A stretch of 63,877 nucleotides of DNA, taken from positions 1-63,877 of the forward strand of contig USES01000004.1 in NCBI GenBank assembly GCA_900553785.1, in the 5' to 3' direction. The stretch's first letter is position 1, and the number at the start of each line of letters is the position of its first letter. Positions 40,552-51,097 of the stretch are shown piece by piece. The notes under the pieces are model-generated. The model had not been told where the DNA came from, did not search any database, and saw nothing but the letters and a program-made list of their open reading frames with translations. Source of the stretch: an uncultured Clostridium sp. GTDB taxonomy: Bacteria > Bacillota > Clostridia > TANB77 > CAG-465. The position numbers and the translations under genes are program-made.

Positions 40552-40634
40552 AATTTGCAAAAATTATAATGTTATGGTATAATATAATCATAGTATTTAA
40601 TACTAATAAAAATTTAAAAATTTTTTATGAAAGG

Positions 40635-40650
40635 CACAACAATTGTTGTG
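40635..40650 (+). promoter_or_regulatory. Perfect 16-bp palindrome CACAACAATTGTTGTG abutting the SD
   Basis: Read directly. TAAGGGA follows immediately. Confidence 0.7.
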
Positions 40651-40664
40651 TAAGGGACATTAAA

Positions 40665-41033
40665 ATGACATGCACGTTAGTTAAAAGAGTAGCTTTTTGT
40701 TTGGCAGTAGTAATGTTTGCATTGCTGGTTTACACTATTTTCGTTGGTGTTCGGTTGTCTTATTGTTCATTTTGCATAATAGATGCAAGGAGCTTTATGA
40801 GTCAAGAATCTGCTGATGAAGTGTACCTCGATATGAATGAGTTCAGACAAGAGATTGCCGATGAATGCGAATATGCATACATACTTTGCCATGCTAGTTC
40901 TTTGATGAGGTCAGCGATTGTGCTTGCAGAAGTAGCAGTTATTTTTGTTAGCTTTATGCTGTGGACTCTTATCAATGACATTGAAAGAGAAGTCGCAAGA
41001 AACCGTGCAAGAGCCAGAAGAAGTAGGGGGTAA
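40665..41033 (+). CDS. Hypothetical two-TM protein with an acidic middle and an Arg-rich C-terminus
   Basis: Start moved to ATG 40665 behind AAGGGA. G/C-richer codon usage. Confidence 0.6.
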   Translation: MTCTLVKRVAFCLAVVMFALLVYTIFVGVRLSYCSFCIIDARSFMSQESADEVYLDMNEFRQEIADECEYAYILCHASSLMRSAIVLAEVAVIFVSFMLWTLINDIEREVARNRARARRSRG

Positions 41034-42540: not shown

Positions 42541-42954
42541 GTGCCAACATTTGCACAATTAGTTAGAAAAGGAAGACAAGATAAAACTACAAAATCTAAG
42601 TCTCCAGCTTTACAAAGAGGATATAACTCTCGTAAAAAAACTGCGACTGATGTATCATCACCACAAAAACGTGGAGTATGTACAGTAGTTAAAACTCAAA
42701 CACCTAAAAAGCCTAACTCTGCCCTAAGGAAAGTAGCCAGAGTAAAACTTACAAATGGAATGGAAGTTTCTGCTTATATTCCAGGTATAGGTCACAATCT
42801 ACAAGAGCATAGCGTTGTTCTAATCAGAGGTGGAAGAGTAAAAGATCTTCCAGGTGTAAGATACCATATAGTTAGAGGTGTTCTTGATACAGCTGGCGTT
42901 GCCGGACGTGTTCAAGCAAAATCTAAGTATGGTGCTAAAAAAGGTAAGAAATAA
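42541..42954 (+). CDS. rpsL: 30S ribosomal protein S12
   Basis: [11 protein letters not shown]...[10 protein letters not shown] sequence. GTG start behind GGGAGGTG. Confidence 0.97.
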
Positions 42955-43033
42955 TCTTTTTTAGTTTTGGTGCTTGATTTATATAGTAAATTTAAAGCAC
43001 TGACAAAATGTTAAAATTTTGAGTACCGAATAA

Positions 43034-43522
<489 letters not shown>

Positions 43523-43555
43523 TAACCAAAGAGATTTTAAGGAGGAAAGTAAAAA

Positions 43556-45640
43556 ATGGCAGGTAGAGAATATCCTCTTGAGAGGACAAGAAATATCGGT
43601 ATCATGGCTCACATCGATGCTGGTAAAACTACTACAACAGAAAGAATACTTTTCTATACAGGTAAAACTCACAAAATAGGTGAGGTTCACGATGGTGGAG
43701 CTACAATGGACTGGATGGCTCAAGAGCAAGAAAGAGGTATAACAATTACTTCTGCTGCAACAACTTGTTTCTGGAGAAACAATAGAATAAACATTATTGA
43801 TACTCCAGGTCACGTTGACTTTACAATAGAGGTTGAGCGTTCTTTAAGAGTACTTGACGGTTCAGTTACAGTACTTTGTGCAAAAGGTGGCGTACAACCA
43901 CAATCTGAGACTGTATGGAGACAGGCTAATAAATATAAAGTACCAAGAATGGTATACGTTAATAAAATGGATATCATGGGTGCAGATTTCTTTAATTGTG
44001 TTGAACAATTAAGAACTCGTCTTGGTGCAAATGCAGTACCTATTCAATTGCCTATTGGAAAAGAAGATACTTTTAAAGGTATCGTTGACCTAGTTGAAAT
44101 GAAAGCATATGTATATTATGATGAACTAGGAAAAGATATCAGAGAAGAAGAAATTCCAGAAGACATGAAAGAAATGGCTGAAAAATATAGAACAGAACTT
44201 CTAGATCACATTGCAGAATTTGATGAAGAAGTTATGATGAAGTATCTTGATGGCGAAGAACTTACAATTGATGAAATCAAAAAATGTATAAGACAATCTA
44301 CAATTGAAAACAAGATGGTAGCAGTAACTTGCGGCACATCTTATAAAAACAAGGGTGTTCAAAAACTACTTGATGCAATAGTAGATTACATGCCATCACC
44401 TTTAGATGTTGAACAAATTAAAGGTGTTACACCAGATGGTAAAGAAGAAGAAAGAATTTCTTCAGATTCTGAACCATTTGCAGCATTAGCATTTAAGATA
44501 GCTACTGACCCTTATGTTGGAAAACTTACATTCTTTAGAGTGTACTCTGGTACACTAGATAGTGGCTCATATGTATACAATGCAAATAAAGATAAGAAAG
44601 AACGTATTGGTCGTATACTTCAAATGCATGCTAATGAAAGAAAAGATATTGACAAAGTTTATTCTGGAGATATCGCAGCAGCAGTTGGCTTAAAAGAAGT
44701 TTATACTGGAGATACATTGTGTGATGAACAACACCCAATTATTCTTGAGTCAATAGAATTCCCAGAGCCAGTTATAGAAATTGCTATCGAGCCTAAGTCT
44801 AAAGCAGACCAAGAAAAAATGGGTATAGCATTAGCAAAACTTGCTGAAGAAGATCCATCATTTAAGACTTATACTAACCAAGAAACTGGTCAAACAATAA
44901 TTGCAGGTATGGGAGAACTTCACCTAGATATTATAGTAGATAGAATGAAGAGAGAATTCCATGTTGAAGCAAATGTTGGTGCTCCACAAGTTTCTTACAA
45001 GGAAACAATTAGAAAACCTGTTAAGGTTGAAGGAAAATTCATCCGTCAATCAGGTGGACGTGGACAATATGGTCATGTATGGCTAGAAGTTACACCAAAC
45101 GAACCAGGTAAAGGTTATGAATTTGAGTCTAAAATCGTTGGTGGTGTTGTTCCTAAAGAATACGTTAAACCAACTGATGAAGGTGTAAGAGAAGCTATGA
45201 AATCTGGTATACTTGCAGGGTACCCTGTAGTAGATGTTAAGGTTGCATTAGTAGATGGTTCTTACCACGATGTTGACTCATCTGAAGCAGCGTTTAAAGT
45301 TGCTGGTTCTATGGCATTTAAAGAAGCTTGCCGTCAAGGTGGAGCAGTACTATTAGAGCCAATAATGAAAGTTGAAGTAACAGTTCCTGAGGAATACATG
45401 GGAGATGTTATAGGAGACATAAACTCAAGACGTGGAAAAATGGAAGGTATGGAATCACAACATGGTTCACAACTTATCCGTGCATTTATCCCATTGTCTG
45501 AGATGTTTGGATATGCAACTGACCTAAGAAGTAAAACTCAGGGTAGAGGTACATATTCTATGGAACCAAGTCATTATGAAGAAGTTCCAAAGTCAGTTCT
45601 AGAAGCAATAGTTGGTTCTAGAGCCAAAAAACAAGACTAA
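43556..45640 (+). CDS. fusA: Elongation factor G
   Basis: [17 protein letters not shown], 694 aa. Confidence 0.97.
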
Positions 45641-45677
45641 TTAAATTACATAATTTTGTCAAAAACGATTAAAAAGC

Positions 45678-45706
45678 TTGCATTATTTTAAGTAATATAG
45701 TAAAAT
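45678..45706 (+). promoter_or_regulatory. Internal sigma-A promoter ahead of tuf
   Basis: TTGCAT, 17 nt, TAAAAT. Confidence 0.55.
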
Positions 45707-45764
45707 ATCCTAAAATAATGCAGTAGCATTAATCGTAAAAGAATATAATAAGGAGGATTTAAAA

Positions 45765-46967
45765 ATGGCAAAAGCAAAGTTCGAAAGAACAAAACCACAC
45801 TGTAATGTTGGTACTATTGGTCACGTTGACCATGGTAAAACATCTTTAACAGCTGCTATAACTAAAGTTGCAGCTTTAATGGGTGGAGCAGAGTTTAAAG
45901 CATACGATCAAATCGATGCAGCTCCAGAAGAAAGAGCAAGAGGTATCACTATTTCTACAGCTCACGTTGAATATGAAACACCTAACAGACACTATGCACA
46001 CGTTGACTGCCCAGGTCACGCAGACTATGTTAAAAACATGATCACTGGTGCAGCACAAATGGATGGTGCTATCCTAGTTGTTTCTGCAGCAGATGGCCCA
46101 ATGCCACAAACAAGAGAGCACATACTACTTGCAAGACAAGTTGGTGTTCCTTATATCGTAGTATTTATGAATAAAGTAGACCAAGTTGATGATCCAGAAC
46201 TTCTTGAATTAGTTGAAATGGATATCCGTGATCTATTAAATAAATACGAATTCCCTGGAGACGAAGTACCTATAATAAAAGGTTCTGCTTTAAAAGCACT
46301 TGAATGTACTTCTACAGATCCTAATGCTCCAGAATATGCTCCAATTCGTGAGTTATTAGATGCAATAGACAAATACATCCCAACTCCTGAAAGAGCTACA
46401 GACAAACCTTTCTTAATGCCAATTGAAGACGTATTCACAATCACTGGTCGTGGTACAGTTGTAACTGGTAGAGTAGAAAGAGGAGAATTAAAAGTTGGTG
46501 ACGAAGTTGAAATCGTTGGTCTAACTGATGAAAAGAAGAAAACAGTAGTAACTGGTATAGAAATGTTCAGAAAATCTCTTGATTCAGCAGAAGCTGGAGA
46601 TAACGCTGGTGTTCTTCTAAGAGGAATTCAAAGAAACGAAGTTGAACGTGGTCAAGTTCTTGCTAAACCAGGAACAATTCACCCACACACTGAATTTGAA
46701 GCTGAAGTTTACATACTAACTAAAGAAGAAGGTGGAAGACATACTCCATTCTTCAATGGTTACAGACCTCAATTCTATTTCAGAACAACTGACGTTACTG
46801 GTGTAATTGATTTACCAGCAGATAAAGAAATGGTAATGCCAGGAGATAACGTAACAATGAAGATTAAGTTAATAACTCCTATCGCTATCGAAAAAGGATT
46901 AAAATTCGCTATTCGTGAAGGTGGTAGAACAGTTGGTGCAGGTTCTGTATCTAACATTATAGCTTAA
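45765..46967 (+). CDS. tuf: Elongation factor Tu
   Basis: [20 protein letters not shown]. 400 aa. Confidence 0.98.
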
Positions 46968-46987
46968 GCTTATTATAAGTTATTTAA

Positions 46988-47018
46988 CACTAGAGCATAA
47001 AGCTCTAGTGCTTTTTTT
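46988..47018 (+). terminator. Terminator of the str operon
   Basis: CACTAGAGC / GCTCTAGTG stem and a T7 run. Confidence 0.85.
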
Positions 47019-47045
47019 GTGGCTGTTACCGCCTAAGCGTCAAAA

Positions 47046-47074
47046 TTGACATAATATCTAGCGTGTGTTATAAT
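47046..47074 (+). promoter_or_regulatory. Consensus sigma-A promoter of the LRR1-LRR2 operon
   Basis: TTGACA, 17 nt, TGtTATAAT. Confidence 0.7.
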
Positions 47075-47099
47075 AAATAACGGGTTATAACGAAGATCC

Positions 47100-47115
47100 A
47101 TATTTAATTAAATAT
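47100..47115 (+). promoter_or_regulatory. Perfect 16-bp palindrome ATATTTAATTAAATAT abutting the SD
   Basis: Read directly. AGGAGGA follows immediately. Confidence 0.75.
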
Positions 47116-47129
47116 AGGAGGAATAAGTT

Positions 47130-47981
47130 GTGAAAATTGCAAGTGGAGAAAAAGTAAGAAATATTTTTTTCGATAAGGCTGGTGTTGCTATACCTGGTCG
47201 AGAATTACCTGACGATTTAATGGTGCTTGGAGATTTAAATTTAGGAGGCACGAATGTAGAGAGACTACCAAATGGCTTAGCAGTAAAAGGGAACTTGATC
47301 TTAAATAATACAAAAATAAGGAAGTTACCCAGTGATATCATAGTTGACGGTTCTATCAATTTAGAAGGTTCACTAATAGAGTTACTACCAGATAATTTAG
47401 AAGTTGAAGGTAATTTATGGCTTGGTAACACGAAAATTAAATTATTGCCAAGAAAATTAATTGTGCATGGTTCAATTAGTTTAAATGACTCTTCTATAGA
47501 GTGGTTGCCTGCTGATTTAGTTGTAGAAAGAAATCTTTGGCTTACAAATACAAAAATAAGATTGCTACCAGATAATTTTACTGTAGGAGAGAATCTTTGG
47601 ATAGACCATACAAAAATTAAGTGGTTACCAGATAATTTAACAGTAAATGGAAGTCTATGGTTAGGTTATACACCCATAAGGTCATTACCAAGTAATCTTA
47701 CTGTAGGTAATAGTTTGTGGCTTATTAACGCAAAGATTAAAACGTTACCCGAAGATATTATGGTAGGAGGATCAATTGACTTAAGTAATTCGCAATTAGA
47801 ATATCTACCAGATAATTTAGATGTTGGTGCTAGTCTTTGGCTAAGTAATACAAAGATAAGAACATTGCCTAAAAATCTTACTGTAGGTGGAGATCTTTGG
47901 TTAGGCGGAACATCAATAGATGTATTGCCAGAAGATTTAATGGTAAGAGGAGAAATTTATTTTAGCTCATGGAGGAATTAA
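47130..47981 (+). CDS. LRR-like solenoid protein 1 (12 full 20-residue repeats, no signal peptide)
   Basis: Repeat consensus LPxNLxVxGxLWLxxTxIxx. GTG start behind AGGAGGA. Confidence 0.8.
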   Translation: MKIASGEKVRNIFFDKAGVAIPGRELPDDLMVLGDLNLGGTNVERLPNGLAVKGNLILNNTKIRKLPSDIIVDGSINLEGSLIELLPDNLEVEGNLWLGNTKIKLLPRKLIVHGSISLNDSSIEWLPADLVVERNLWLTNTKIRLLPDNFTVGENLWIDHTKIKWLPDNLTVNGSLWLGYTPIRSLPSNLTVGNSLWLINAKIKTLPEDIMVGGSIDLSNSQLEYLPDNLDVGASLWLSNTKIRTLPKNLTVGGDLWLGGTSIDVLPEDLMVRGEIYFSSWRN

Positions 47982-47983
47982 GT

Positions 47984-48688
47984 ATGAAAATGACAGGTGA
48001 TGATATTAGAAAAGCATTTTTCGATGAAATTGGCTTTATAAAAGCCGGAGAGAGAATACCTGATCATTTGGTTGTAAGTGGTGACCTTGATTTAACTGAT
48101 ATGTGTATACGGTTATTGCCAAATAATCTTACTGTAGAGGGTAGTCTTTGGCTCGGAAATACTCCAATAGAGTTTTTGCCATCAGATTTAAAAGTAGGAG
48201 GTTCTATTGATTTAAGTGACTCTGATATAAAGCGCCTACCAGATAACTTTGTTGTCGAGGGCGATCTTTGGCTGAATAATACAAAGATAAAGGAATTGCC
48301 AGCTAATTTTACCGTAAAAGGTAATCTTTGGCTTACAAATACATTGGTGAAAGAACTGCCAAATAATTTGAAAGTTTGGAAAAGACTTTGGATTATTGGT
48401 ACACCAATAATTAAGTTACCGAATAATTTGACGGTAAATGGCAATCTTGATTTGAGTAATAAACCAATAGAAGTTTTACCAGATAATTTAACCGTACACG
48501 GTAATTTGGATTTAAGGGGCTCAAAAATAGAAAAAATTCCAGTTAATCTTTGTGTAGATGGAAACATTTACTTAAGCAAAAGATTAACAAAAAAGGCAAT
48601 TGAGAATATGTTCAAAAATTCTCTGGTGAACGGTGAAATTCATTTAAGTTCTGTGGATAAGGTAAAATCTGATATCTTAAACAATTGA
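47984..48688 (+). CDS. LRR-like solenoid protein 2 (about 8 repeats)
   Basis: Start moved to ATG 47984 behind GGAGGA, 2 nt after the LRR1 stop. The N-terminus DIRKAFFDEIGF parallels LRR1 VRNIFFDKAGV. Confidence 0.8.
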   Translation: MKMTGDDIRKAFFDEIGFIKAGERIPDHLVVSGDLDLTDMCIRLLPNNLTVEGSLWLGNTPIEFLPSDLKVGGSIDLSDSDIKRLPDNFVVEGDLWLNNTKIKELPANFTVKGNLWLTNTLVKELPNNLKVWKRLWIIGTPIIKLPNNLTVNGNLDLSNKPIEVLPDNLTVHGNLDLRGSKIEKIPVNLCVDGNIYLSKRLTKKAIENMFKNSLVNGEIHLSSVDKVKSDILNN

Positions 48689-48700
48689 ATTTATTAGCAG

Positions 48701-48750
48701 AAAGCATAAGAATATGTTTTAATTAACATTTTCTTATGCTTTTTGTTTTG
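48701..48750 (+). terminator. Terminator after LRR2
   Basis: AAAGCATAAGAA / TTCTTATGCTTT stem plus a T-run. Confidence 0.75.
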
Positions 48751-48758
48751 CATGTAAA

Positions 48759-48787
48759 TTGAATTAAATTTTGTGATGTGATATAAT
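48759..48787 (+). promoter_or_regulatory. Sigma-A promoter of LRR3
   Basis: TTGAAT, 17 nt, TGaTATAAT. Confidence 0.6.
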
Positions 48788-48809
48788 GGCTTAAATTTAA
48801 TAGAAATCC

Positions 48810-48825
48810 ATATTTAATTAAATAT
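48810..48825 (+). promoter_or_regulatory. Second copy of the palindrome ATATTTAATTAAATAT
   Basis: Identical 16-mer with the same TCC 5' flank, 2 nt before AGGGGGA. Confidence 0.75.
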
Positions 48826-48841
48826 TTAGGGGGAATTTAGC

Positions 48842-49090
48842 ATGAGATTATCACTTAAGAGGTTACAAGAATTGATGGCTGCAGATGATGGAAATCTTGA
48901 TTTGAAATGTACACCGCTTGATTCTTTACCGGATAATCTTACTGTAGAAGGTAATCTTGATTTAAGGTACACAGACGTCGAAACATTACCTAGTAGCCTC
49001 ATAGTGAAAGGTTGGTTAGATTTGAGACACACGAAAATTAAAGTGTTGCCGGATAATGTTGTAGTCCTTGGAAAAGTTTATTTTAATTAA
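48842..49090 (+). CDS. LRR-like solenoid protein 3 (short, 3 repeats)
   Basis: Same 20-residue repeat (LPDNLTVEGNLDLRYTDVET...). Confidence 0.7.
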   Translation: MRLSLKRLQELMAADDGNLDLKCTPLDSLPDNLTVEGNLDLRYTDVETLPSSLIVKGWLDLRHTKIKVLPDNVVVLGKVYFN

Positions 49091-49123
49091 AATAAAAAAG
49101 TATTAAGTGATTGTAGTTGAAGT

Positions 49124-49165
49124 AAAAAAATCATAAGGGATAATAAAAGTCCCTTATGATTTTTT
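49124..49165 (+). terminator. Terminator after LRR3
   Basis: ATCATAAGGGA / TCCCTTATGAT 11-bp stem and a T-run. Confidence 0.85.
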
Positions 49166-49200
49166 ACATTAGTATTTTCACAGTGCAAAGTACATTTAAA

Positions 49201-49229
49201 TTGACATAACATTGATGCTGCGATATAAT
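49201..49229 (+). promoter_or_regulatory. Consensus sigma-A promoter
   Basis: TTGACA, 17 nt, TATAAT. Confidence 0.65.
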
Positions 49230-49254
49230 TGAAAAGTCAAAAATAAAGTTCATT

Positions 49255-49264
49255 TTTAATTAAA
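49255..49264 (+). promoter_or_regulatory. TTTAATTAAA palindrome core in the leader of the 49284 ORF
   Basis: Same core and same distance from the -10 as in the LRR leaders. The flanks are imperfect. Confidence 0.55.
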
Positions 49265-49283
49265 TAATGAAGGAATCATAGCC

Positions 49284-49814
49284 ATGTTAAGAAAAATGTT
49301 GTATGTAGTAAAGAGAGGGAAAAATATGCATTTTAAAACTATCAGGTATGATAAGAATAATAACAGCAAGTTGTTCTATATTTCTATTGACCTAAATAAA
49401 CCTAGCATTGATTCTAGTGAAGCATTAGAATTTGAAAAGAAGGTAAGATTTGCATCTTTGAATGTCTCTTATAACATCCCTATAAGTCAATATGTTCGTT
49501 TAATGCGTTCAGCTTTAGAAGATATAGACTATTCAAGGCTTTCAATAGGGATTCATACGGAATTATATGCTAGTTCTAGTTTTTCGTTTGTAATTGAGTA
49601 TAATAACAATGGTGAATGGAATCTTAAAATAGAAGAAAAAATATATAATTGTGTTCTAACTTTTACGTACCAAACGCCGGGAATAATTACAACAAAGTGT
49701 GAAAAGCAAAACAAAGACTTATCCAATGATGTAATGGTTGATGCGTTTCCAAAGTATGGAAGTTTTTTTAAGAGGACAATGAAGATGTATACAAACTTTA
49801 TTGAACAGGTGTAA
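49284..49814 (+). CDS. Hypothetical protein, no recognisable family
   Basis: ORF track. Alternative start ATG 49326 behind GAGGG. Confidence 0.55.
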   Translation: MLRKMLYVVKRGKNMHFKTIRYDKNNNSKLFYISIDLNKPSIDSSEALEFEKKVRFASLNVSYNIPISQYVRLMRSALEDIDYSRLSIGIHTELYASSSFSFVIEYNNNGEWNLKIEEKIYNCVLTFTYQTPGIITTKCEKQNKDLSNDVMVDAFPKYGSFFKRTMKMYTNFIEQV

Positions 49815-49883
49815 ATAAGGGTATAGTTTTATAATTCGACTTATTTAGACAATATGTTACACAAGCAAATACAGGGCTTAGAG

Positions 49884-49912
49884 TTGACATAAACGTAAGA
49901 TTGTGCTATACT
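49884..49912 (+). promoter_or_regulatory. Sigma-A promoter
   Basis: TTGACA, 17 nt, TATACT. Confidence 0.6.
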
Positions 49913-49965
49913 ATTTTAGCACGTAAATTTATAATAACTTTAATAATTTAAAGGAGAGATTGGAA

Positions 49966-50469
49966 ATGAGACAAGTGTTTTCAAATGTTCAAAAAGATTC
50001 AAGAATAATCGTTATGTTTTCTGATAACAATTACAATGATGGTTCAAACAGTGATGTTAAGTTAGACCAAATGAATGAAGTTGTGGAAAATTTTGACCCC
50101 AAATTTATTACGTTACAAAATGCCATATACTATTTACATTATTCTCTTAACAAGAGCTTTGAAGATAAAACGCTATATGTTCGCATAGAAAGAGAAAAAT
50201 GCACATATTACGTAAAATATGAAAAAGGAGTATTAGCTAGCTTAAATGTTACAGAAGAGAAAGACGGTATTTACTTTACAATGAAATATGAGTCTAAAAG
50301 ATTAGGATGTGTAAAACCTCAAGCTGTTACTGAAGACATACGTTTTAACATGTATGGATGTAATGGTCAGATTGTTGATAACATGACATTTTTTAGAGAA
50401 TTTCAGGATAACTCTTTAAACATGTGTAAAAAGTTAAGAGCCATTGAAAAATCATATAATATTGTATAA
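49966..50469 (+). CDS. Hypothetical protein, no recognisable family
   Basis: Start moved to ATG 49966 behind AAGGAGAG. Confidence 0.6.
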   Translation: MRQVFSNVQKDSRIIVMFSDNNYNDGSNSDVKLDQMNEVVENFDPKFITLQNAIYYLHYSLNKSFEDKTLYVRIEREKCTYYVKYEKGVLASLNVTEEKDGIYFTMKYESKRLGCVKPQAVTEDIRFNMYGCNGQIVDNMTFFREFQDNSLNMCKKLRAIEKSYNIV

Positions 50470-50476
50470 ATATATA

Positions 50477-50507
50477 GGCCAAGGGATTTCCCTTGGTCTA
50501 TTTTTTT
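50477..50507 (+). terminator. Terminator hairpin between convergent genes
   Basis: GGCCAAGGGA / TCCCTTGGTC stem and a T7 run. Confidence 0.7.
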
Positions 50508-51097
50508 CGTATAGCAAATATGAAAAATGGAATAAGAATCGGAAGCAATATACTTAGTATAGTAAGTACTACGGCGAAGTTTGGCGTTTTACTTTGGTAA
50601 AGTCTATATATTAGTCCAAAAAAAGCTAATATAAAAAGAATAGAAGACAAACCACACATAAATGGCAGCATATTGGATATAATAAGAGCAGGGAGTAGAA
50701 ATTCAGGGTTAATTATCTCTATACCATATAATTTTGTTTTACCAACTGCTTTACCTATTGAGTATAAACAACCATATGGAACAAATGATAGCCATGCCAA
50801 GTTACAGCCGTCTTTTTTAAGAATTTTATATAGTCCTATGGATTTAAATATATACATTATTATTAAGAAAACCAAAGCTATTATTAAAGTAATTCCTATG
50901 GTAGTGATAGCTTCTTGAATGTTTTCCCAGTTGATATTTTTTAGTGTTTCAGTATCTGGAATATTTAATATGTCTGCAATTTTAGTAAGAATTTTTGTTA
51001 CTATATTATTTAAGCTTAAGGAGACTTTACTTGATGTGTTATTTTTAGTTATACCTTGAACAATATCTTCAATATATGGCGATATTACATTTTGCAT
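50498..51097 (-). CDS. Membrane protein, DUF5684-like
   Basis: Four TM helices. The GLYKILKKDGCNLAWLSFVPYG segment resembles DUF5684 (from memory). Confidence 0.6.
   Translation of the reverse strand: MQNVISPYIEDIVQGITKNNTSSKVSLSLNNIVTKILTKIADILNIPDTETLKNINWENIQEAITTIGITLIIALVFLIIMYIFKSIGLYKILKKDGCNLAWLSFVPYGCLYSIGKAVGKTKLYGIEIINPEFLLPALIISNMLPFMCGLSSILFILAFFGLIYRLYQSKTPNFAVVLTILSILLPILIPFFIFAIRKK

What the first reader, a model, noticed from the sequence alone, without database searches (positions are those of the whole stretch)
47046..49090. Three paralogous cytoplasmic 20-residue LRR-like repeat proteins inserted directly after tuf
LRR1 has 12 full repeats, LRR2 about 8 and LRR3 three, all of consensus L-P-x-N-L-x-V-x-G-x-L-W/D-L-x-x-T-x-I-x-x. 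This gives a strict 60-nt DNA period. None has a signal peptide, TM helix, sorting motif or enzymatic domain. LRR1 and LRR2 also share an N-terminal cap (IFFDKAGV / AFFDEIGF). The block sits between the str-operon terminator and fapR, with its own consensus promoters. The 20-residue unit is at the short extreme of known bacterial LRRs (the YopM/IpaH class is 20-22 residues). A Thr occupies the usual Asn/Cys ladder position, so this may be a distinct solenoid subtype. Possible roles are protein-recognition modules such as sensors, decoys or effectors. Repeat number may vary through recombination among the near-identical 60-nt units.
Basis: partly seen in the sequence, partly recalled or inferred. 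Interest (0 to 1): 0.65.

Follow-up and report, generated by a model that had tools for sequence, protein, structure and literature searches.

The report
Phage-type 20-residue LRR proteins after tuf
Three small cytoplasmic leucine-rich-repeat proteins in an uncultured gut Clostridia genome are real and well folded, belong to a large unnamed repeat family carried mainly in phage early-gene regions, and sit in a fast-changing chromosomal slot; their function is unknown.

Summary
Three + strand ORFs (47130-47981, 47984-48688, 48842-49090) consist of strict 20-residue repeats, LPxNLxVxGxL(W/D)LxxTxIxx. They lack a signal peptide, TM segment or catalytic domain. AlphaFold gives confident LRR solenoids (pLDDT 94 and 93).

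- The 60-nt units are only 54% identical on average, not near-identical.
- Repeat number did not vary across the strain contigs of this species that were examined.
- Three more orphan genes lie between LRR3 and fapR.

The repeat type is not structurally new. Vibrio FlrP (PDB 8Z5U) has it (E 1e-24 to 1e-28). No Pfam, NCBIfam, PHROG or PADLOC model reaches its cutoff on the window proteins.

The family has about 4,600 50%-identity clusters and is strongly phage-associated. It usually sits beside CI-like repressors, integrases and RecT/exonuclease genes.

In this Clostridia clade the tuf-to-membrane-gene interval is a variable-cargo slot. Only two of the species examined carry these LRR genes there.
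- A sister species has one ortholog at 44% identity, with a clean one-repeat difference.
- Scaffold residues are 75% conserved between the orthologs and surface residues 20%.
- LRR2 carries a nonsense mutation in the other sampled strain lineage.

Best reading: fast-evolving, phage-derived cytoplasmic protein-binding modules. Their target is unknown.

The parts
46988..47010 (+). Intrinsic terminator of tuf / the str operon, forming the left boundary of the variable slot
   Evidence: 9-bp stem with 5 GC pairs, followed by a T run.
47046..47074 (+). Promoter-like site for the LRR1-LRR2 operon: TTGACA, 17 nt, TATAAT, with a TG extension (12/12 match)
   Evidence: It is conserved as a module with the other island promoters.
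47100..47115 (.). Perfect 16-nt AT palindrome ATATTTAATTAAATAT between the promoter and the RBS; a candidate operator or 5'UTR element
   Evidence: An identical copy lies at 48810. The sister species has ATATTAAATTTAATAT at the same place.
47130..47981 (+). LRR1: 283 aa. N-cap helix, 12 full 20-residue repeats and a C-cap ending GEIYF. Acidic (pI 5.1), with 10 Trp
   Evidence: AlphaFold pLDDT 94, pTM 0.89. Foldseek matches LRR proteins. Sequence match to FlrP at E 1.5e-24.
47984..48688 (+). LRR2: 234 aa (an alternative ATG at 47969 gives 239 aa). The start lies 3 nt after the LRR1 stop. About 9 repeats plus a 35-aa tail. It is the ortholog of the single LRR gene in the sister species
   Evidence: It has GAG>TAG at codon 57 of the 239-aa frame (window 48137) in the other strain lineage.
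48701..48750 (+). Hairpin plus T run after LRR2, a likely terminator. The loop is too long for the scan tool
   Evidence: Read directly from the sequence: aaagcataagaa...ttcttatgcttttt.
48759..48787 (+). Promoter-like site for LRR3: TTGAAT, 17 nt, TATAAT, with a TG extension (10/12 match)
48810..48825 (.). Second exact copy of the 16-nt palindrome, immediately 5' of the LRR3 RBS
48842..49090 (+). LRR3: 82-aa mini-LRR. N-cap helix (residues 5-14), about 3 coils and a C-cap ending GKVYF. Its N-cap belongs to a different, prophage-type subfamily from that of LRR1 and LRR2
   Evidence: AlphaFold pLDDT 93.1, pTM 0.81. N-cap alignment to P0003, P0006, P0008 and P0018.
49130..49165 (+). Hairpin plus T run after LRR3, a likely terminator
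   Evidence: Read directly from the sequence: atcataaggga...tcccttatgattttttt.
49201..49814 (+). Orphan ORF4 (162 or 176 aa) with its own 12/12 promoter (49201-49229) and a palindrome variant (49252-49267). Part of the same variable island
   Evidence: No family hit. Its 90%-identity cluster has 15 members, none with a source name.
49884..50469 (+). Orphan ORF5 (167 aa) with an 11/12 promoter (49884-49912). Homologs occur only in this clade, always in the tuf-to-membrane-gene slot
50498..51097 (-). Conserved 199-aa multi-pass membrane protein, forming the right boundary of the variable slot. It is present across the clade at 47-100% identity whatever the cargo

Best explanation
LRR1, LRR2 and LRR3 are genuine cytoplasmic leucine-rich-repeat solenoid proteins made of little more than a cap, a run of 20-residue coils and a cap. 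They belong to a very large, unnamed LRR subfamily with the repeat LPxxLxVxGxLxLxxTxIxx. That subfamily is carried mainly by phages and prophages in their early (repressor / recombination / replication) gene regions.

In this uncultured gut Clostridia species they sit in a chromosomal variable-cargo slot between tuf and a conserved membrane-protein gene. They are expressed from strong sigma-A-type promoters that share a palindrome-containing leader.

The mechanism I think most likely is stoichiometric protein binding. The hydrophobic scaffold positions hold a rigid solenoid. The exposed positions, including a Trp/Asp ladder at repeat position 12, form a recognition surface for a protein partner. 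That surface is being re-specified quickly, which fits a role in phage-host or mobile-element conflict: binding or blocking an invader protein, or a host factor that an invader uses.

Shown here: gene reality, fold, family, phage association, slot variability, fast surface divergence, dispensability of LRR2, and no repeat-number variation within the species. Inferred: protein binding, the conflict role, and the identity of any target.
For: Fold and family
- AlphaFold gives pLDDT 94 (LRR1) and 93 (LRR3), with two short strands per 20-residue coil.
- Foldseek against PDB hits Leptospira LRRs, SHOC2, FlrP, YopM, IpaH and SspH2 at E 1e-4 to 3e-7.
- The best viral match is a Caudovirales LRR protein: E 1e-16, TM 0.84/0.81, rmsd 1.0 over 244 columns, 46% identity.
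- Sequence match to FlrP (8Z5U) at E 1.5e-24 and 5e-28.

Family size
- 4,595 cluster representatives at E<=1e-3 and 1,950 at E<=1e-10.

Phage association
- The same repeat query, with similar peptide patterns, confirmed 282 loci in IMG/VR (2.9 M contigs) against 45 in 32 M genome contigs.
- Neighbours of the genome hits include HTH_3 x6, phage integrase x4, Peptidase_S24 x4, RecT, Sak, SSB and a phage replisome organiser.
- Neighbours of the viral hits include CI-like repressors, exonucleases, DnaD-like loaders, a primase and Ant. No structural proteins appear among the top families.
- Edwardsiella phage Edno5 carries one between its CI repressor and exo/RecT.

Fast evolution on a conserved scaffold
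- Against the sister species, EF-G and EF-Tu are 100% identical, FapR 90%, PlsX 83% and the membrane protein 75%, but the LRR is 44% identical with a clean 20-aa indel.
- Scaffold positions are identical at 54/72 and exposed positions at 18/88.
- Between strains, LRR1-3 show 7 nonsynonymous changes (one a nonsense) and 1 synonymous. The flanking housekeeping genes show 2 and 32. Fisher p = 1e-5.

Slot variability
-.

Cytoplasmic location
-.
Against: - No binding partner, expression data or phenotype exists.
- A nonsynonymous:synonymous ratio of 1 or more, together with a nonsense allele of LRR2 in the other sampled lineage, is equally what relaxed constraint would give.
- The window copies lie in no recognisable prophage and lack the C-terminal or PcfJ-like domains that most relatives carry. 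A role inferred from phage relatives may therefore not transfer.
- No PADLOC defence model matches any island gene.
- The only characterised relative, FlrP, is a structural spacer in a flagellar motor, not a conflict protein.
Confidence: 0.5

Rival explanations
1. The genes are decaying leftovers of a mobile element: LRR modules that lost their effector domain, are drifting towards pseudogenes, and have no current function.
For: - LRR2 has a GAG>TAG nonsense codon in all five loci aligned from the other strain lineage.
- LRR1-3 show 7 nonsynonymous changes against 1 synonymous between strains.
- The window proteins lack the C-terminal domain or PcfJ-like domain seen in most relatives.
- Five of seven species-level relatives lack LRR genes in the slot.
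Against: - LRR1 and LRR3 are intact and unchanged in length in every arrangement shown.
- The sister-species ortholog keeps an open frame, both caps and 75% identity at scaffold positions despite about 20% nucleotide divergence of its neighbours. Neutral decay would have broken it.
- All units keep strong promoters, an RBS and terminators.
- LRR3 has both caps and folds confidently, so it is a complete mini-LRR and not a fragment.
- Standalone LRR-only proteins of 195-260 aa are common in viral contigs.
Confidence: 0.22
2. They are housekeeping adaptors tied to their neighbours, either to translation (tuf / str operon) or to lipid synthesis (fapR-plsX). An example would be scaffolds that bind EF-Tu or FapR.
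For: Position immediately downstream of tuf and upstream of fapR. The single LRR gene of the sister species is in the same position.
Against: - A terminator follows tuf, and each unit has its own promoter.
- Most species in the clade keep the arrangement tuf, slot, membrane gene, fapR with no LRR gene at all.
- EF-Tu is 100% identical between the two LRR-bearing species, while exposed LRR residues are only 20% identical. That does not fit a conserved partner.
- No shared operator with fapR was found.
Confidence: 0.05
3. They are secreted or surface-exposed LRR adhesins or effectors, like internalins, BspA or YopM/IpaH, acting on the animal host or on other cells.
For: LRR fold with a 20-residue unit, as in YopM/IpaH. 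The gut habitat. One relative carries a NEL E3-ligase domain.
Against: - No signal peptide or TM segment by hydropathy.
- No Pfam or NCBIfam domain reaches its cutoff, so there is no recognisable anchoring or enzymatic domain such as NEL.
- Similarity to SspH1 is marginal, E 0.056-0.65.
- Relatives sit in phage early regions, not in secretion-system loci.
- From general knowledge: Clostridia lack type III secretion.
Confidence: 0.04
4. The array is a contingency locus whose repeat number changes frequently by recombination or slippage between 60-nt units.
For: Strict 60-nt period. A one-unit difference between species orthologs. Between 3 and 28 units in relatives, many with near-perfect repeats that break assemblies.
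Against: - Units in this genome are 35-73% identical (mean 54%), and the longest shared word is 21 nt.
- TRF finds only a 2-copy stretch.
- There is no length change in LRR1, LRR2 or LRR3 in any arrangement shown, and the strain lineages are about 98.8% identical over the region.
Confidence: 0.04

Closest known systems
Vibrio FlrP (BCB49735.1; PDB 8Z5U/8Z5W/8Z60), an LRR protein of the polar flagellar motor (bioRxiv 10.64898/2025.12.04.692373)
   Same: - It has the same 20-residue repeat type, LPxGLxVxGxLxLxxTxIxx.
- The sequence match spans about 160 residues, at E 1.5e-24 (LRR1) and 5.4e-28 (LRR2).
- Foldseek gives E 3e-6.
- It is likewise a small LRR-only protein with short caps.
   Different: - FlrP has a Sec signal peptide, is periplasmic, has a positively charged surface and binds the flagellar rod and FliF loops as a spacer.
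- The window proteins have no signal peptide and are acidic, pI 5.1-6.0.
- They are not adjacent to flagellar genes, judging from the ORF list and the Pfam-annotated genes of the matching contigs.
- They are related by repeat family, not as orthologs.
Uncharacterised phage and prophage early-region LRR proteins (e.g. UniProt A0A6J7X691 and A0A6J7X9U5 'Leucine-rich repeat [uncultured Caudovirales phage]'; Edwardsiella phage Edno5 Edno5_0047; Podoviridae sp. ctz6O13 'SspH2-like')
   Same: - These are the closest relatives by sequence (40-50% identity) and by structure (TM 0.84, rmsd 1.0).
- They share the same caps. The LRR3 N-cap matches the 'MTYTIEQLEQMMRENGGNLDL' subfamily.
- Many viral copies are LRR-only proteins of 195-260 aa.
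   Different: - The phage copies lie next to repressors, integrases, RecT/exonuclease and replication genes.
- They often carry a conserved, unannotated C-terminal domain of about 140 aa, or an N-terminal PcfJ-like domain.
- Their repeats are often near-identical.
- The window copies are chromosomal, lie outside any recognisable prophage, have no extra domain and have diverged repeats.
- None of these phage proteins has a known function.
YopM / IpaH / SspH / SlrP 'bacterial class' LRRs of type III effectors
   Same: A unit length of 20-22 residues and a beta-solenoid without helices on the convex side. Foldseek hits at E 1e-4 to 2e-4.
   Different: - The effector consensus has two prolines and an Asn ladder (LxxLPxLPxxLxxLxVxxNxL; from established classification, not tested here).
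- This family has one Pro, a Gly at position 9 and Thr/Ser at the ladder position.
- Sequence similarity is marginal, E 0.056-0.65.
- There is no NEL domain and no secretion signal.
BspA/TpLRR (Pfam LRR_5) surface proteins
   Same: These are bacterial LRR proteins common in gut anaerobes. One occupies the same tuf-to-membrane-gene slot in a related species (L063).
   Different: The LRR_5 model does not match the window proteins. The L063 protein shows a different repeat motif (…IPNSVxSIGxxAF…) and has a hydrophobic N-terminal anchor. The two are unrelated at sequence level.

Membership tests
Leucine-rich repeat superfamily (fold level) | Tandem 20-30-residue units with a hydrophobic LxxLxLxx(N/C/T)xL-type core | tested here: met
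   22 units of exactly 20 residues. Occupancy is L/I at positions 1, 11 and 13; V at 7; I/V at 18; P at 2; G at 9; T/S at 16. Lag-20 z-scores are 7-18.
Leucine-rich repeat superfamily (fold level) | Curved beta-strand/turn solenoid structure | tested here: met
   AlphaFold pLDDT 94 and 93. Foldseek finds 67 PDB matches at E<=1e-3, and the 50 best listed are LRR proteins. This rests on prediction; there is no experimental structure of these proteins.
Leucine-rich repeat superfamily (fold level) | Match to curated LRR profile HMMs at the gathering threshold | tested here: not met
   The only LRR hit for a window protein is LRR_14 at 14.7 bits against a cutoff of 40, for LRR3. LRR1 and LRR2 have none. 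Consensus-like relatives do pass LRR_1 (42.5 against 20.6) and LRR_4 (39.8 against 27).
FlrP family (Vibrio flagellar-motor LRR) | Significant sequence similarity across the repeat core | tested here: met
   E 1.5e-24 and 5.4e-28 over about 160 residues. Repeat proteins inflate such scores, so this shows a shared repeat family and not orthology.
FlrP family (Vibrio flagellar-motor LRR) | Sec signal peptide and periplasmic location | tested here: not met
   No N-terminal hydrophobic segment; maximum KD19 is 0.88. FlrP has signal peptide M1-A19.
FlrP family (Vibrio flagellar-motor LRR) | Basic surface complementary to the P ring, and flagellar association | tested here: not met
   pI is 5.1, 6.0 and 5.2. 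The Pfam-annotated neighbours on the matching contigs are str operon, fapR-plsX-acpP-rnc and orphans, with no flagellar families.
YopM/IpaH-class T3SS effector LRRs | NEL E3-ligase domain or a T3SS-effector context | tested here: not met
   No NEL or other domain. XopAE scores 12.3 bits against a cutoff of 600. Only 1 of 78 relatives has NEL.
YopM/IpaH-class T3SS effector LRRs | Sequence similarity to the class | tested here: inconclusive
   SspH1 at E 0.056-0.65. Fold-level matches at E about 1e-4.
Phage early-region LRR family with this 20-residue repeat (unnamed; defined here) | LPxxLxVxGxLxLxxTxIxx repeats with the family's N-cap and C-cap | tested here: met
   40-50% identity to family members. 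Caps align. TM 0.84 and rmsd 1.0 to a Caudovirales member.
Phage early-region LRR family with this 20-residue repeat (unnamed; defined here) | Location in a phage or prophage early (repressor / recombination / replication) region | tested here: not met
   In the window the genes lie between tuf and fapR. No integrase, repressor or recombinase lies in the island.
Phage early-region LRR family with this 20-residue repeat (unnamed; defined here) | Accessory domain: a C-terminal domain of about 140 aa (YRVITGAC…) or an N-terminal PcfJ-like domain | tested here: not met
   Absent from LRR1-3. The feature is not universal: many viral members are LRR-only.
Known anti-phage defence systems (PADLOC) | Match to any defence-system protein model | tested here: not met
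   No hits for any of the six island proteins at E<=0.01.

The most novel reading that the evidence does not exclude
This 20-residue-repeat LRR family is a major, so far unrecognised class of phage-host conflict proteins. Phages would deploy the LRR early in infection, alone or fused to a PcfJ-like domain or to the unannotated C-terminal domain, to capture host defence or other host proteins. The chromosomal copies here would be domesticated versions that the bacterium uses the other way round: constitutively expressed decoys or sensors that bind incoming phage proteins. On that reading, the tuf-proximal slot is a new kind of small defence or anti-mobile-element hotspot in this Clostridia clade.
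Probability: 0.2. Interest if true: 0.7.

Novelty: new member of a known kind. Interest (0 to 1): 0.4.

Why it matters
The three genes themselves are ordinary in kind: LRR binding modules of unknown partner. They do point to something under-described. The family has thousands of 50%-identity clusters, is concentrated in the early regions of temperate phages across many bacterial phyla and at least one archaeal genome bin, and reached no Pfam, NCBIfam, PHROG or PADLOC cutoff for the window proteins. Its one characterised member (FlrP) does something unrelated.

If the phage copies prove to be host-takeover or anti-defence binders, the family would add an LRR-based recognition layer to bacterial-phage conflict, parallel to the role of LRRs in eukaryotic immunity.

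Locally, the data document a small variable-cargo slot next to one of the most conserved operons of the genome. They also give a clear example of scaffold conservation with near-complete turnover of the surface.

Tried and rejected
- **Genome scan anchored on FapR,** to collect sister species. The patterns matched 30 stretches and none was a relative. The clade was reached instead through homologs of the membrane protein and ORF5, plus contig look-ups.
- **Literature.**
  - 'PcfJ' was swamped by C. elegans pCFJ plasmids.
  - Motif strings such as LxxLxLxxTxL returned nothing.
  - 'leucine-rich repeat + bacteriophage + anti-defense' returned nothing relevant.
- **The look-up of sequencing runs.** There is therefore no expression or long-read test.
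- **ORF4 and ORF5 as paralogs.** Rejected: BLASTP E 0.33.
- **The 5'UTR palindrome as a FapR operator shared with the fapR promoter.** Rejected. The window fapR upstream region has no such site, and AT palindromes are common at 30% GC.
- **The C-terminal domain of prophage relatives.** No PDB hit (best E 0.35, prefoldin, which is noise), no PHROG hit and no Pfam hit.
- **Recent horizontal acquisition judged by composition.** Not supported: island GC is 32.3% against 30.5% for the window.
- **Minus-strand ORFs inside the repeats** (47108-47431, 48064-48567, 48826-49032). Treated as shadow ORFs of the repeats. They have no independent support.


Full report
**1. What is in the sequence**

Downstream of tuf (45765-46967) and its terminator (46988-47010) lie three + strand ORFs.
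- LRR1 is 47130-47981: 283 aa, GTG start, AGGAGG 8 nt upstream.
- LRR2 is 47984-48688: 234 aa. An upstream in-frame ATG at 47969 would give 239 aa.
- LRR3 is 48842-49090: 82 aa.

In a 20-residue register, LRR1 has 12 full repeats plus a capping 13th. LRR2 has 8 clean and 1-2 degenerate repeats. LRR3 has 2 full repeats between cap half-repeats.

Column occupancy over 22 repeats is L1 P2 x (N/D)4 L5 x V7 x G9 x L11 (W/D)12 L13 x x (T/S)16 x I18 x x. Lag-20 self-identity is 0.32-0.37 against 0.08 in shuffles, z = 7-18. Lag-60 DNA identity is 0.456 against about 0.28. The motif occurs nowhere else in the window.

The proteins are acidic (pI 5.1-6.0), have no hydrophobic segment (maximum KD19 0.88) and contain 10, 5 and 1 Trp. 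No Pfam, NCBIfam, PHROG or PADLOC model reaches its threshold.

- The 60-nt units are not near-identical. Mean identity is 54%, the maximum is 73% and the longest shared word is 21 nt. TRF sees only 2 copies.
- The block does not abut fapR. Two orphan ORFs (49284-49814 and 49960-50469) and a divergent 199-aa membrane-protein gene (50498-51097, minus strand) intervene.

**2. Fold**

AlphaFold2 with a 40-sequence alignment gives LRR1 pLDDT 94 and pTM 0.89, with two short strands per coil and an N-terminal helix. LRR3 gives pLDDT 93.1 and pTM 0.81, with an N-cap helix at residues 5-14. LRR3 also ends in the same C-cap motif as LRR1, G(K/E)(V/I)YF. It is therefore a complete mini-LRR and not a fragment.

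Foldseek against PDB gives 67 matches at E<=1e-3, and the 50 best listed are LRR proteins. They include Leptospira LIC11098 (3e-7), SHOC2, FlrP 8z5u (3e-6), SlrP, YopM, SspH2 and IpaH1.4.

**3. Closest solved relative**

Sequence search of the PDB finds one strong match: the 199-aa 'Leucine-rich repeat protein' of entries 8Z5U, 8Z5W and 8Z60. The E-values are 1.5e-24 for LRR1 and 5.4e-28 for LRR2.

The depositing paper (bioRxiv 10.64898/2025.12.04.692373) names it FlrP. It is a previously uncharacterised Sec-exported LRR protein. Five copies bind the rod of the Vibrio polar flagellar motor as positively charged spacers.

It has the same repeat type, so the 'Thr-ladder' 20-residue solenoid is not structurally new. 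The window proteins have no signal peptide and are acidic. They share the repeat family, not the function.

**4. The wider family**

phmmer of LRR1 against 1.84 billion cluster representatives finds 4,595 proteins at E<=1e-3, 1,950 at E<=1e-10 and 264 at E<=1e-30. Most are longer multidomain proteins. The best non-self hits are only 39-50% identical.

Of 78 relatives scanned with Pfam, 23 carry a PcfJ-like domain (PF14284). Single cases carry NEL, Thg1, DnaJ, F-box-like or DUF6745.

Another large subgroup has a short N-cap, 3-28 often near-perfect repeats, and a conserved C-terminal domain of about 140 aa (…DG..AHG…YRVITGAC..GT…). That domain has no Pfam, PHROG or PDB match. Consensus-like members of this subgroup pass the Pfam LRR_1 and LRR_4 cutoffs.

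**5. Phage association**

- *Genome hits.* A repeat-pattern scan of 32 M genome contigs found 45 loci scattered across distant lineages: Clostridia, Gastranaerophilales, Gracilibacteria, a Diapherotrites archaeon, Helicobacter pylori, Flavobacterium, Bacteroidales, Colwellia, Trabulsiella and Micavibrio.
- *Viral hits.* The same query on IMG/VR (2.9 M contigs) confirmed 282 loci. One 256-kb contig carries at least five copies.
- *Neighbours of the genome hits.* These include HTH_3 (6), phage integrase (4), Peptidase_S24 (4), RecT (2), Sak, SSB, DUF3799 and a phage replisome organiser.
- *Neighbours of the viral hits.* These include CI-like and other repressors, exonucleases, DnaD-like loaders, a primase and Ant. 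No virion proteins appear among the leading families.
- *Phage Edno5.* In Edwardsiella phage Edno5 the gene lies between the CI repressor and exo/RecT.
- *Plasmids.* 133 records, mostly large Citrobacter and Klebsiella plasmids, also carry copies among hypothetical genes.
- *Structure.* The best viral structural match is a Caudovirales LRR protein: E 1e-16, TM 0.84/0.81, rmsd 1.0, 46% identity.
- *Standalone copies.* LRR-only proteins of 195-260 aa are frequent in viral contigs.
- *Cap subfamilies.* The LRR3 N-cap (MRLSLKRLQELMAADDGNLDL) matches the 'MTYTIEQLEQMMRENGGNLDL' prophage subfamily. LRR1 and LRR2 share a different cap subfamily. The three genes are therefore not simple recent duplicates of one another.

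**6. Local context and evolution**

The organism is an uncultured Clostridia bacterium, seen in human-gut and pig-gut metagenome assemblies.

*Within the species.* each read 23 contigs, giving 6 and 7 distinct arrangements. The island is collinear in those of this species. LRR1 is 283 aa and LRR3 is 82 aa in all of them. The LRR2 locus always has the same length. In all five loci aligned from the other strain lineage (about 98.8% identical over the region) it carries GAG>TAG at window position 48137.

Between the two lineages LRR1-3 show 7 nonsynonymous changes (including that nonsense) and 1 synonymous. The flanking rpsL, rpsG, fusA, tuf, membrane, fapR, plsX and acpP genes show 2 and 32. Fisher p = 1e-5.

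*Sister species (L016).* This species is much more diverged in its flanks, and its tuf is followed by only one LRR gene.

| Protein | Identity to the window |
|---|---|
| EF-G, EF-Tu | 100% |
| FapR | 90% |
| PlsX | 83% |
| Membrane protein | 75% |
| LRR (206 aa, LRR2 ortholog) | 44%, with exactly one 20-residue unit fewer |

Scaffold positions are identical at 54/72 and exposed positions at 18/88.

*More distant clade members.* These keep the arrangement tuf, slot, membrane gene, fapR, but hold other cargo.
- A Peptidase_S15 hydrolase, a BspA-type LRR_5 protein and a 174-aa orphan (L063).
- One 180-aa orphan (L064).
- Three small ORFs (L065).
- An ORF5 homolog plus a 294-aa orphan (L066, L150, L153).

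None of these carries the 20-residue LRR. The interval is therefore a variable-cargo slot, and the LRR genes are one lineage-restricted cargo. ORF5 homologs exist only in this clade.

**7. Regulation**

Each unit has its own sigma-70-type promoter.

| Unit | Promoter | Match |
|---|---|---|
| LRR1 | 47046-47074 | 12/12 |
| LRR3 | 48759-48787 | 10/12 |
| ORF4 | 49201-49229 | 12/12 |
| ORF5 | 49884-49912 | 11/12 |

Hairpin plus T-run terminators follow LRR2 and LRR3.

The five upstream regions, including that of the sister species, align as one module: the -35 and extended -10 elements, then about 25 nt, then an AT palindrome, then the RBS.
- The palindrome is the exact 16-mer ATATTTAATTAAATAT before LRR1 and LRR3.
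- In the sister species it is ATATTAAATTTAATAT, changed symmetrically in both halves.

This suggests a common operator or leader element. The evidence is weak in a 30% GC genome: with up to 2 mismatches there were 4 sites against 0.93 expected.

**8. Interpretation**

Shown:
- The genes are real and encode confident LRR solenoids.
- They belong to a huge phage-centred family.
- The location is a hypervariable slot.
- The surface turns over fast on a conserved scaffold.
- LRR2 is dispensable.
- Repeat number does not vary within the species.

Inferred:
- They act by binding proteins through the exposed face, including the Trp/Asp ladder at position 12.
- Their partner changes quickly, as expected for phage-host or mobile-element conflict.

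The main rival is relaxed constraint on relics. It is weakened by four points.
- The frame and scaffold are preserved across species.
- The promoters are strong.
- LRR3 has complete caps.
- LRR-only relatives are common in phages.

The rival is not excluded (22%). Housekeeping, secreted-effector and contingency-locus readings are each disfavoured by specific tests, listed under the rival explanations.

**9. Novelty**

The fold and the repeat type are known, from FlrP. The proteins are new members of an LRR subfamily that reached no curated-model cutoff here and has no known function outside FlrP.

The family-level pattern is the more interesting lead: phage early-region location, PcfJ-like fusions and an unannotated C-terminal domain. 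I found no paper describing it. A DGR survey notes PcfJ-like domains N-terminal to diversified regions in CPR bacteria (PMC5758913). That fits a picture of PcfJ-like domains paired with variable binding modules.

Noticed in passing
window 42541-46967 vs L016: The rpsL-rpsG-fusA-tuf block is 98.3-99.6% nucleotide-identical to a sister species. That species' flanking genes are only 74-83% identical (aminotransferase, membrane protein, fapR, plsX). This reflects either extreme conservation of the str operon or a recent recombinational exchange. The 3' edge of the block coincides with the variable slot.
   Followed up: partly
window 47030-47135, 48743-48847, 49185-49290, 49868-49970; L016 8270-8376: All four island transcription units, and the LRR gene of the sister species, share one promoter/leader cassette: TTGACA, 17 nt, TGnTATAAT, then about 25 nt, then an AT-rich palindrome, then the RBS. 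The palindrome is changed symmetrically in both half-sites between species. It could be a common operator or 5'UTR element; no regulator was identified.
   Followed up: partly
window 46968-50497 and loci L016, L063-L066, L150, L153: The interval between tuf and a conserved 199-aa membrane-protein gene is a variable-cargo slot across this Clostridia clade. It holds different orphan genes in each species, and in one species a BspA-type LRR_5 protein and a Peptidase_S15 hydrolase.
   Followed up: yes
window 49093-49296: The intergenic region upstream of ORF4 is unusually divergent between strains: 15 substitutions or indels in about 200 nt, against about 0.5% elsewhere. The ORF4 start also differs, giving 176 or 162 aa.
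   Followed up: no
relatives P0003, P0004, P0016, L018, L020, L027, L034, L036 (C-terminal ~140 aa): A conserved C-terminal domain (…DG..AHG…DL.YKIS.RD…YRVITGAC..GT..F…YTI.E…T.G.YG..F..FF) is fused to this LRR type in many prophage proteins. It has no Pfam, PHROG or PDB match.
   Followed up: partly
relatives; PMC5758913: A PcfJ-like domain (PF14284) is fused N-terminally to this LRR type in 23 of 78 relatives. The same domain is reported N-terminal to DGR-diversified regions in CPR bacteria. This hints that it is an effector or anchor domain paired with variable binding modules.
   Followed up: no
L130, L134, L148, L096, L118 (IMGVR_UViG_3300027816_000052): One 256-kb viral contig carries at least five separate genes of this LRR type.
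   Followed up: no
window 40569-41033: An IS200/IS605-type Y1 transposase ORF (PF01797 in the matching contig L012) lies upstream of the aminotransferase and the str operon.
   Followed up: no
window 47108-47431(-), 48064-48567(-), 48826-49032(-): Long minus-strand ORFs (107, 167 and 68 aa) run antisense through the repeat arrays. They look like shadow ORFs produced by the periodic codon pattern.
   Followed up: no
L020 (Helicobacter pylori SHZY19, NZ_JAHXLB010000019.1): An H. pylori isolate contig encodes a 374-aa member with near-perfect LPDNLTVGGSLDLRGTQITS repeats plus the C-terminal domain, among small co-directional genes. The wider distribution in H. pylori was not checked.
   Followed up: no
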